Source: Pelagomonas calceolata (taxonomy: Eukaryota). From it: DNA of 64,000 bases. This document shows, piece after piece, positions 63,458-63,644 of the stretch (the stretch's first letter is position 1; every line of letters starts with the position of its first letter). The stretch is from positions 2,852,001 through 2,916,000 of the forward strand of contig CAKKNE010000005.1 in assembly GCA_918797485.1 (NCBI GenBank), read 5' to 3'. The position numbers and the translations under genes were made by a program. Below the pieces are notes generated by a model. The model did not search any database, had not been told where the DNA came from, and saw only the letters and a list, made by a program, of their open reading frames with translations.

Positions 63458-63644
63458 GGCGGGGAGAAATCCCTTGCCACTAATCAAAATTGGAACGACA
63501 CAGAGAACGAAAGGTGCAGGAGGCCTTCGTATGTCTAAGATTAGGTCTGCGAAAAGCGGAGATATTCATGGCCCCTGCGCAAGGATGACTGCTCCTTGAT
63601 CGGACCCGTCCCACGCACAAATCGAGAGAGGTTCGATAATTTTT
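63458..63644 (+). ncRNA. U6: U6 snRNA gene 2, interrupted by three short non-GT-AG inserts (63506-63536, 63545-63566, 63590-63612)
   Basis: Removing the inserts gives a complete ~110-nt U6 that differs from gene 1 by only 3 substitutions and 1 indel outside the 5' hairpin; TATA box upstream and T5 end. Confidence 0.88.

What the first reader, a model, noticed from the sequence alone, without database searches (positions are those of the whole stretch)
63458..63644. U6 snRNA gene split by three tiny hairpin inserts with bulge-helix-bulge-like geometry: candidate tRNA-endonuclease-type introns in a spliceosomal RNA
Seen: the gene reads ...GACACAGAG[31 nt]AAGATTAG[22 nt]CATGGCCCCTGCGCAAGGATGAC[23 nt]ACGCACAAATCG..., and none of the inserts is GT-AG. 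All three have the layout 1 nt + hairpin + 4 nt + 2 nt: A-ACGAAAGG(loop)CCTTCGT-ATGT-CT; G-TCTGC(GAAAA)GCGGA-GATA-TT; T-GCTCC(TTGATC)GGACC-CGTC-CC. In each, the 4-nt block can pair with exon positions -6 to -3 (ACAG/ATGT 3 of 4, GATT/GATA 3 of 4, GATG/CGTC 4 of 4, counting G-U). Each junction therefore falls after the 2nd base of a 3-nt bulge flanking a 4-bp helix; outer-helix pairing is weak. Established: this is the cleavage geometry of the archaeal EndA / eukaryotic TSEN family, known from tRNA, archaeal rRNA and archaeal cbf5 mRNA introns. The inserts hit the ACAGAGA box, split the catalytic AG|C triad and abut the internal stem-loop, so an unspliced RNA could not act as U6, yet the exons, TATA box and T-run are intact. 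Inference: this U6 matures by non-spliceosomal splicing (TSEN plus a tRNA ligase). I am not aware of this having been described for an snRNA.
Basis: partly seen in the sequence, partly recalled or inferred. Interest (0 to 1): 0.95.

Follow-up and report, generated by a model that had tools for sequence, protein, structure and literature searches.

The report
tRNA-type introns in algal U6 RNA
A marine alga's gene for U6, the catalytic RNA of the splicing machine, is broken by three tiny hairpin inserts, one of which appears in RNA data as an exact head-to-tail repeat as expected of an excised circle, so they are likely removed by the tRNA-splicing enzymes, which I found no report of for a spliceosomal RNA.

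Summary
The U6 gene at 63458-63644 has three non-GT-AG inserts (31, 22, 23 nt), each laid out as 1 nt + hairpin + 4 nt + 2 nt, the 4 nt pairing with exon -6..-3. A neighbouring protein points to a pelagophyte (Pelagomonas calceolata or close kin). New support: (1) a metagenomic relative, syntenic with the window's other U6 gene, has three unrelated inserts with the same layout, two at new sites, and no change in a 74-nt exon core (joint shuffle rate about 4e-8); (2) one RNA-type run holds a 61-nt contig that is exactly all 31 rotations of insert 1, the signature of an excised circle; (3) the other U6 copy is not intronless either (a GT-AG intron plus a hairpin insert with compensatory changes in a relative). 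Against: joined exons were never seen (the tool drops human-like reads, so this is untested), the circle is one contig in one run, outer helices are weak, the other copy's insert fails the central helix, and no enzyme was tested. Best reading: relaxed bulge-helix-bulge introns cut by TSEN and sealed by an RtcB-type ligase (0.75).

The parts
63425..63432 (+). TATA box of U6 gene 2, 33 nt upstream of the inferred start
   Evidence: sequence; promoter role inferred
63458..63505 (+). U6 gene 2 exon 1: 5' stem-loop, 5' telestem strand, first six bases of the ACAGAGA box; C at 63499 where the other U6 genes compared have T
   Evidence: 5' end inferred from the hairpin and from X21 reads starting in bin 63455-63465
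63506..63536 (+). insert 1, 31 nt, 1 + hairpin + 4 + 2; seen as an exact head-to-tail repeat (circle signature) in run X5
63537..63544 (+). exon 2, 8 nt, ends in the AG of the catalytic AGC triad
   Evidence: contig break exactly after 63544 in run X7
63545..63566 (+). insert 2, 22 nt, splits AG from C of the triad; boundaries cannot slide
63567..63589 (+). exon 3, 23 nt, internal stem-loop region; identical to gene 1
63590..63612 (+). insert 3, 23 nt, central helix 4/4
63613..63644 (+). exon 4 with 3' telestem strand and T5 run (63640-63644), the likely Pol III terminator
   Evidence: terminator role inferred
55350..55388 (+). U6 gene 1 exon 1 (TATA-like box at 55319-55326)
55389..55447 (+). 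gene 1 spliceosomal-type intron, 59 nt, GT...TAG with a CTAAC branch-like motif at 55428; absent from the syntenic gene in L005
   Evidence: splicing not tested
55448..55506 (+). gene 1 exon 2, the uninterrupted U6 core found by Rfam (57.4 bits)
55507..55530 (+). gene 1 3' hairpin insert, 24 nt, same site as L005 insert c; outer helix 5/5, central helix 1/4; stem changes compensated in L003
55531..55542 (+). gene 1 last exon and T4 run

Best explanation
[quoted passage not shown] Shown: the inserts, their layout, an insert-containing sense transcript, a head-to-tail repeat of insert 1 with exact ends in one run, and the same layout in three other inserts of a relative. Inferred: Pol III transcription; folding of each insert into a hairpin whose 3' tail pairs with exon -6..-3; cutting after the second base of each 3-nt bulge; the identity of nuclease and ligase; exon joining; function of the product in the spliceosome. 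Exon 2 is only 8 nt, so inserts 1 and 2 are probably removed one after the other, as in multi-intron archaeal tRNAs.
For: Layout met by 3 of 3 gene 2 inserts and 3 of 3 inserts in L005. Over these six, the hairpin register 1 nt/6 nt gives 23 of 24 pairs; registers off that helix give 5-12. The central helix gives 19 of 24 at the 2+2 position; other pairing registers give 6-13. L005 is syntenic with gene 1 (EF-hand gene upstream, malate dehydrogenase downstream). Its inserts are unrelated to gene 2's (best local alignment score 8 or less), two are at new sites in the ACAGAGA box and just after the AGC triad, and its 74-nt exon core differs from gene 1 at 0 positions and from gene 2 at 2, while the alignment across the flanks is 78% identical. 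L005 insert c is a full hBHBh' with outer helix 5/5. Run X5 record 2: 61 nt, depth 10.4, letters 1-28 = 63509-63536 and 29-61 = 63506-63538; its 31 31-mers are exactly the 31 rotations of insert 1, and 28 of them are absent from the window; no flanking exon contig was laid in that run. Concatemeric RNA-seq reads are the published signature of circular tRNA introns, and circularisation follows RtcB (PMC4536317, PMC6614914, passages). Run X7 contigs break exactly after 63544 with a 30-nt overlap, where a form lacking insert 2 would branch off (weak hint). Gene 1's 3' insert differs from L003's at 7 of 24 positions with two compensatory pair changes and one repaired mismatch, while the adjacent GT-AG intron differs at 1 of 59. 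Some algae have BHB-dependent tRNA introns at odd positions, and relaxed HBh' sites are known (PMC4090602, passages); non-Amorphea eukaryotes are proposed to have a symmetric TSEN that may read local structure (PMC10485636 section 13).
Against: No read or contig with joined exons in 8 runs laid: 11 of 11 raw reads and 3 of the 4 contigs laid are colinear with the DNA, and none shows a partly spliced form. The tool silently drops human-like reads, the joined core is human-like, and the raw runs were poly(A)-selected and 6-12% sampled, so this is not a fair test; but it is not positive either. The circle rests on one contig in 1 of 4 contig runs, a run whose RNA nature is the tool's guess; no circle of insert 2 or 3 was seen. 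It fits slides 0, +1 and +2 equally. Outer helices of gene 2 are 1/5, 3/5, 2/5, and 5 of 6 central helices have a mismatch. The same-site insert of gene 1 and L003 has central helix 1/4, so 2 of the 8 insert sequences examined (one site) fail the rule. No ortholog of gene 2 itself was found (0 of 5 loci), so its own stems have no covariation test. Gene 2 has C at 63499 where gene 1, L005 and 13 of 13 intronless U6 loci have T. TSEN and RtcB genes of this organism were not examined (no genome held). Some sense reads start upstream of the predicted start, so not all are Pol III precursors.
Confidence: 0.75

Rival explanations
1. The inserts are cut out by TSEN-like activity but gene 2 yields little or no working U6: cleavage leads mostly to decay, or gene 2 is a fading paralog and another copy supplies the spliceosome.
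For: No joined gene 2 exons seen. C at 63499 against T in all 15 other U6 sequences compared. Yeast TSEN cuts mRNAs without ligation (PMC10485636, passages). Gene 1's catalytic core is uninterrupted once its GT-AG intron is removed.
Against: A circle needs a ligase acting on the same ends that would join the exons (PMC6614914, passages). Gene 2 keeps TATA, 5' stem, T-run and 72 of 74 core bases. In L005 it is the gene 1 ortholog that has core-breaking inserts, with 0 core changes.
Confidence: 0.1
2. The inserts are true non-spliceosomal introns but another nuclease removes them (an Ire1-like or SOS-splicing-like activity, or an unknown enzyme), with RtcB sealing.
For: The circle shows excision and ligation, not which nuclease cut. 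The motif is relaxed and gene 1's insert lacks the central helix. RTCB serves TSEN-independent routes (PMC12779559, passages).
Against: The fixed 1 nt / 6 nt offsets and exon -6..-3 pairing are what two 3-nt bulges around a 4-bp helix predict. SOS splicing needs inverted terminal repeats, does not need TSEN and gave no circles. The Ire1 loop consensus (recalled) is at none of the six gene 2 junctions.
Confidence: 0.08
3. The inserts are never removed: gene 2 is a pseudogene or an RNA that keeps them, and the 61-nt contig is a genomic tandem repeat in that culture or a library artefact.
For: All linear reads and contigs carry the inserts. One contig, one run. The whole genome could not be searched for a tandem array.
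Against: An artefact would have to copy exactly the boundaries that U6 homology defines, and no flanking contig accompanies it. Six unrelated inserts share one layout. Exons stay fixed while inserts come and go between relatives. An RNA with AG and C of the triad 22 nt apart could not form the catalytic core (triad role: PMC5855946, passages).
Confidence: 0.05
4. The inserts are ultra-short, non-canonical introns removed by the spliceosome itself, like the U6 introns of fungi.
For: U6 is a known target of spliceosomal intron gain near the catalytic core (PMC5855946 section 14), and gene 1 carries such an intron. Insert 2 starts with GT. Full-length intron circles made by spliceosomes are reported (10.1101/2024.03.26.586863, search listing only).
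Against: 0 of 8 insert sequences have GT-AG, GC-AG or AT-AC ends under any slide, and end dinucleotides vary freely. The fungal introns have canonical 5', branch and 3' sites.
Confidence: 0.02

Closest known systems
Bulge-helix-bulge introns of archaeal tRNAs at non-canonical positions, and of Cyanidioschyzon merolae and nucleomorph tRNAs (PMC4090602, PMC3978253, PMC8450103; passages)
   Same: [quoted passage not shown]
   Different: The host is a spliceosomal snRNA, not a tRNA, so no tRNA body is there for a ruler-type TSEN; outer helix mostly weak.
Archaeal cbf5 and HVO_1309 mRNA introns, and archaeal pre-rRNA processing by TSEN/EndA (PMC10485636, passages)
   Same: Non-tRNA hosts cut at relaxed BHB motifs; cbf5 exons are ligated.
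   Different: Those are archaeal. The review lists eukaryotic non-tRNA TSEN targets only as yeast mRNAs cut for decay, without splicing; 'snRNA' occurs 0 times in its main text.
tRNA intronic circular RNAs, tricRNAs (PMC4536317, PMC6614914; passages)
   Same: Exact intron circle read as concatemers in RNA-seq; tied to TSEN ends and RtcB.
   Different: Here the circle comes from a U6 gene in a stramenopile and rests on one contig.
mRNA-type introns in fungal U6 genes (PMC5855946 section 14; the primary papers were not read)
   Same: Same host RNA, same hot spots near the ACAGAGA box, AGC triad and ISL, several per gene, rapid lineage-specific gain. Gene 1's 59-nt intron looks like this kind.
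   Different: Those have canonical splice and branch sites and are removed by the spliceosome; these have neither.
SOS splicing of DNA transposons from animal mRNAs (PMC12779559, passages)
   Same: Spliceosome-independent, structure-triggered, RTCB-sealed.
   Different: Needs inverted terminal repeats of a transposon, gives several junction isoforms, does not need TSEN, and no circle was detected.

Membership tests
U6 snRNA (Rfam RF00026) | 5' stem-loop, ACAGAGA box, AGC triad, ISL, telestem, 3' T-run in the exons | tested here: met
   Exon model aligns without gaps in the core to 13 intronless U6 loci, 111 nt; unspliced gene scores only 22.1 bits against a cut-off of 44
Relaxed BHB (HBh') introns of TSEN/EndA | 4-nt central helix between exon -6..-3 and intron -6..-3 | tested here: met
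   3/4, 3/4, 4/4 in gene 2; 3/4 in each of three L005 inserts; fails (1/4) in the gene 1 and L003 3' insert
Relaxed BHB (HBh') introns of TSEN/EndA | 5' bulge of 2 exon + 1 intron base followed by the inner helix h'; 2 intron bases after the central helix | tested here: met
   register 1/6 gives 23 of 24 pairs over six inserts
Strict hBHBh' motif | outer exon-exon helix closing the 3' bulge, and a perfect 4-bp helix | tested here: not met
   outer 1/5, 3/5, 2/5 in gene 2; 0/5, 2/5, 5/5 in L005; one of six central helices perfect. Not filed under the strict motif
Relaxed BHB (HBh') introns of TSEN/EndA | precise excision; intron circularised where RtcB is the ligase | tested here: met
   insert 1 only, one contig in 1 of 4 contig runs; inserts 2 and 3 not seen
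Relaxed BHB (HBh') introns of TSEN/EndA | exons ligated into the mature RNA | tested here: inconclusive
   none seen in 8 runs; human-like reads are dropped by the tool; X7 break after 63544 is a weak hint
Relaxed BHB (HBh') introns of TSEN/EndA | cleavage by TSEN/EndA leaving 5'-OH and 2',3'-cyclic phosphate | not testable with these tools
   needs biochemistry
Relaxed BHB (HBh') introns of TSEN/EndA | host encodes TSEN and RtcB and has BHB-type tRNA introns | not testable with these tools
   no genome held; neither family among the 49 window ORFs scanned; no tRNA gene in the window
Spliceosomal U6 introns (fungal type) | GT/GC-AG ends with a branch site | tested here: not met
   0 of 8 hairpin insert sequences under any slide; met by gene 1's 59-nt intron
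Introner elements of pelagophytes | about 210 nt, GT or GC donor, AG acceptor, terminal inverted repeats, many copies | tested here: not met
   definition from 10.1101/2021.10.25.465678 passages; inserts are 22-31 nt, mutually unrelated, and share at most one stray 12-mer with the rest of the window
SOS-splicing substrates | inverted terminal repeats at the very ends of a DNA transposon | tested here: not met
   hairpins are offset 1 and 6 nt from the ends; direct repeats at the junctions 0-2 nt
Ire1-type HAC1/XBP1 introns | each cut site in the loop of its own stem-loop with a short consensus (motif recalled, from no call) | tested here: not met
   read by eye: the six gene 2 junctions share no such motif and flank one hairpin

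The most novel reading that the evidence does not exclude
In this algal lineage U6 genes are repeatedly invaded by a class of 22-31 nt bulge-helix-bulge introns, gained at different points of the catalytic core between close relatives, so that every U6 copy needs the tRNA-splicing endonuclease and ligase to mature, one copy needs the spliceosome as well, and all mRNA splicing in the cell depends on tRNA splicing.
Probability: 0.45. Interest if true: 0.97.

Novelty: new variant of a known kind. Interest (0 to 1): 0.9.

Why it matters
If right, it is a natural eukaryotic RNA other than tRNA that is spliced by the tRNA endonuclease, and it is the spliceosome's catalytic RNA. A 2023 review lists such splicing only in archaea and asks which eukaryotic TSEN architectures can read local structure (PMC10485636, passages and section 13); these precursors are ready-made substrates for that question. 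Six insertion sites among a few close relatives also give a young, comparable set for the open question of how tiny BHB introns arise and move (PMC4090602 calls the mechanism unknown). Standard annotation misses the gene (22.1 bits against a cut-off of 44), so similar snRNA genes may be hidden in other protist genomes.

Tried and rejected
Whole genome: none held, so U6 copy number, tRNA introns, TSEN and RtcB could not be checked. Viral collection: 0 matches for two U6 patterns. Metagenome scan: 5 loci, of which L001 and L004 are chance matches, L002 is a near copy of gene 1 that ends before the 3' insert, and L003 and L005 are informative. Prokaryote genome scan: 19 loci, 13 intronless eukaryotic U6 genes (three from one contig) and 6 chance matches, none with inserts (my note said 12 and 7, one search corrects it). 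Raw poly(A) reads: X21 4, X22 2, X23 5, X24 0 laid, no joints. Contig run X3: nothing laid. ARAGORN with introns at a lowered threshold gave 29 calls in GC-rich DNA that I treat as noise; the default run gave 0. Alternative registers for gene 1's 3' insert: one of the start/length pairs scanned passed, but it does not restore the U6 3' end; a 23-nt version gives central helix 0/4. A fourth, 17-nt insert at 63630-63646 fits the layout by eye but rests on G-U pairs, free choice of ends and contains the T5 run; not claimed. Whole-precursor minimum-energy folding does not show the three motifs together, so the geometry rests on local pairing counts. Earlier scan notes held nothing on this locus. 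A look for the METTL16 motif in PMC10581693 found 0 passages.

Full report
What is there. The window holds two U6 genes 8 kb apart; the 23-nt exon 3 of gene 2 occurs exactly twice, against 0 in 100 shuffles. Rfam finds gene 1 (57.4 bits) but gives gene 2 only 22.1 bits, below the cut-off of 44. Gene 2 has a TATA box at 63425, four exons and three inserts of 31, 22 and 23 nt, then a T5 run. The malate dehydrogenase next to gene 1 has relatives at 96-97% identity, and the cluster of one of them contains a UniRef entry labelled Pelagomonas calceolata; the DNA is found in marine metatranscriptomes. I therefore treat the host as that pelagophyte or a close relative. No genome is held.

The layout is real. 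With G-U allowed, the inserts pair with exon -6..-3 at 3/4, 3/4 and 4/4, their hairpins start at base 2 and end at base -7 (5/5, 5/5, 4/5), and the outer helices are weak (1/5, 3/5, 2/5). No slide gives spliceosomal ends. Each insert, shuffled 20000 times, meets both criteria in 0.6-1.6% of cases; 3004 of 200000 random window segments do. The thresholds are the lowest values met by these three inserts, so this is not an independent test.

An independent test came from the one metagenome scan: 5 loci, 2 of them chance. L005 lies between the same EF-hand and malate dehydrogenase genes as gene 1. It lacks gene 1's GT-AG intron and has three hairpin inserts of 30, 23 and 29 nt: one inside the ACAGAGA box at a different position from gene 2's, one three bases after the AGC triad, and one near the 3' end. 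All three meet the rule (central 3/4 each; inner 5/5, 4/5, 4/5), with a product of shuffle rates of 3.8e-8, or about 3e-6 using the window rate; the third also has a 5/5 outer helix. Over the six inserts the 1/6 hairpin register gives 23 of 24 pairs (off-helix registers 5-12) and the central helix 19 of 24 (the same pairing shifted along the helix 15-19, other registers 6-13). The six are unrelated in sequence (local scores 8 or less). The 74-nt exon core differs at 0 positions between gene 1 and L005 and at 2 between gene 2 and either, while the alignment across L005's gene and downstream flank is 78% identical to the window. Inserts come and go; exons do not change. That is the pattern of introns in a working gene, not of decay.

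Gene 1 is not a clean spare. It has a 59-nt GT...TAG intron with a branch-like motif (55389-55447) and a 24-nt hairpin insert (55507-55530) at the same site as L005's third insert. In L003, another gene 1-type copy with a different downstream flank, the GT-AG intron differs at 1 of 59 bases but the insert at 7 of 24, with A-U to C-G and C-G to G-U changes and an A-C mismatch turned into U-A. The stem looks selected. But this insert pairs with exon -6..-3 at only 1/4 (outer helix 5/5). It fails the rule, and whether it is removed is unknown. Other U6 copies elsewhere in the genome cannot be excluded.

RNA evidence. Of 24 runs listed, 8 were laid on gene 2. Four raw poly(A) runs of one sample, 6-12% read, gave 4, 2, 5 and 0 reads, all 99% or more alike, all in the orientation that indicates sense RNA in most stranded libraries, none with a joint; those of X21 start in the bin of the predicted 5' end, others start upstream. 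Four contig sets gave 1, 0, 2 and 1 records. X1 holds an insert-containing contig (63473-63632). X7 holds two that break exactly after 63544, the fixed 5' boundary of insert 2, with the 30-nt overlap of a graph branch; the other branch is not shown. About 6 of some 190 positions would fit a splice junction (my estimate), and a variant at 63514 would give the same break, so this is a weak hint. X5 holds one 61-nt record, depth 10.4, that runs 63509-63536 and then 63506-63538. It is a substring of tandem insert 1, its 31 31-mers are the 31 rotations of the insert, and 28 are absent from the window. No exon-containing record was laid in that run. This is what a 31-nt circle gives after rolling-circle reverse transcription, as described for circular tRNA introns, whose formation follows RtcB (PMC4536317 and PMC6614914, passages). 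Limits: one contig, one run whose RNA nature is the tool's guess; a genomic tandem array in that culture is not excluded; the circle is the same for slides 0, +1 and +2. Circles of 22 and 23 nt share no 31-letter word with the DNA and may be invisible to the tool (inference). Joined exons were not seen, but the tool states that it drops human-like reads without notice and the joined U6 core is of that kind, so mature U6 was not fairly tested.

Mechanism. Shown: inserts, layout, sense transcripts with inserts, the exact repeat of insert 1, recurrence of the layout at other sites. From established knowledge: a BHB is a 4-bp helix with a 3-nt bulge on each 3' side (PMC6614914, passage); relaxed hBH and HBh' sites and multiple odd-position introns occur in archaea and in some algae, where the motif seems to select the substrate (PMC4090602, passages); close introns can need ordered removal (PMC8450103, passage); the AGC triad and ACAGAGA box are essential (PMC5855946, passages). 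Inferred: the Pol III precursor folds locally, TSEN cuts after the second base of each bulge, an RtcB-type ligase joins exons and closes the inserts, and a 111-nt U6 results. I put this at 0.75. The rest goes to cutting without useful product (0.10; gene 2 has C at 63499 where 15 of 15 other U6 sequences have T), another nuclease (0.08), no removal (0.05) and the spliceosome (0.02).

Comparison. It works like a relaxed BHB intron and meets the sequence-level features of the HBh' class; it fails the strict hBHBh' motif; the enzyme is untested. It is not a fungal-type U6 intron (those have canonical sites, PMC5855946 section 14), not an introner (10.1101/2021.10.25.465678, passages) and not an SOS substrate (PMC12779559, passages). 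The TSEN review gives archaeal mRNA splicing and rRNA processing, and yeast mRNA cleavage without ligation, as the non-tRNA roles (PMC10485636, passages and section 13).

Novelty. Nine full-text searches of the open library returned no paper whose listing or abstract start describes non-spliceosomal or BHB introns in an snRNA, or U6 introns in a stramenopile. The main texts of two pelagophyte genome preprints contain 'snRNA' and 'tRNA' 0 times; their supplements were not visible. A 2026 review of non-canonical splicing has 0 hits for snRNA (PMC13149111). PMC3978253 and PMC10598085 (passages) gave nothing on pelagophytes. Subscription journals are largely missing from the library, so absence from print is not proven. 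I rate it a new variant of a known kind: known intron chemistry in a new and central host RNA.

Verdict. Observation confirmed; interpretation supported, with direct proof of exon joining and of the enzyme still open. Interest 0.9.

Noticed in passing
window 55389-55447: A 59-nt GT-AG intron with a branch-like motif in U6 gene 1, just upstream of the ACAGAGA box; present in L002 (0 differences) and L003 (1), absent from the syntenic L005. The review read describes spliceosomal U6 introns only from fungi.
   Followed up: partly
window 63647-63658; L005 trailer after its last exon: Downstream of the first T-run, gene 2 and L005 carry an 11-12 nt stretch complementary to the 5' telestem strand and resembling the 3' end of ordinary U6 genes. 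L005 has only T3 at the first run, so its transcript may reach this second end. Duplicated 3' end or a further, older insert; unexplained.
   Followed up: partly
window 63499: T-to-C change just before the ACAGAGA box in gene 2 only. It lies in the METTL16 recognition motif as I recall it (from no call), so the two U6 paralogs might differ in m6A.
   Followed up: no
window 55236-55310; L005 upstream of U6: A conserved element upstream of gene 1 with a short palindromic GC-rich motif occurring twice about 55 nt apart, preceded by a box C-like word; no Rfam match. Promoter element or small RNA.
   Followed up: no
L003, whole locus: A gene 1-type U6 with a downstream flank unrelated to the window, suggesting a further U6 copy at another place in this or a sister lineage.
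   Followed up: partly
window about 62580-62920: Two probable introns in the minus-strand UBA-like-domain gene upstream of gene 2 share a repeated motif and may be introner elements.
   Followed up: no
L006-L010, L012-L014, L017, L019-L022: Thirteen intronless eukaryotic U6 genes sit in contigs of prokaryotic metagenome-assembled genomes, three in one contig: eukaryotic contamination of those bins.
   Followed up: no
window 63870-63960: A lower-complexity stretch with short repeated and palindromic motifs downstream of gene 2, possibly the end of a repeat element.
   Followed up: no
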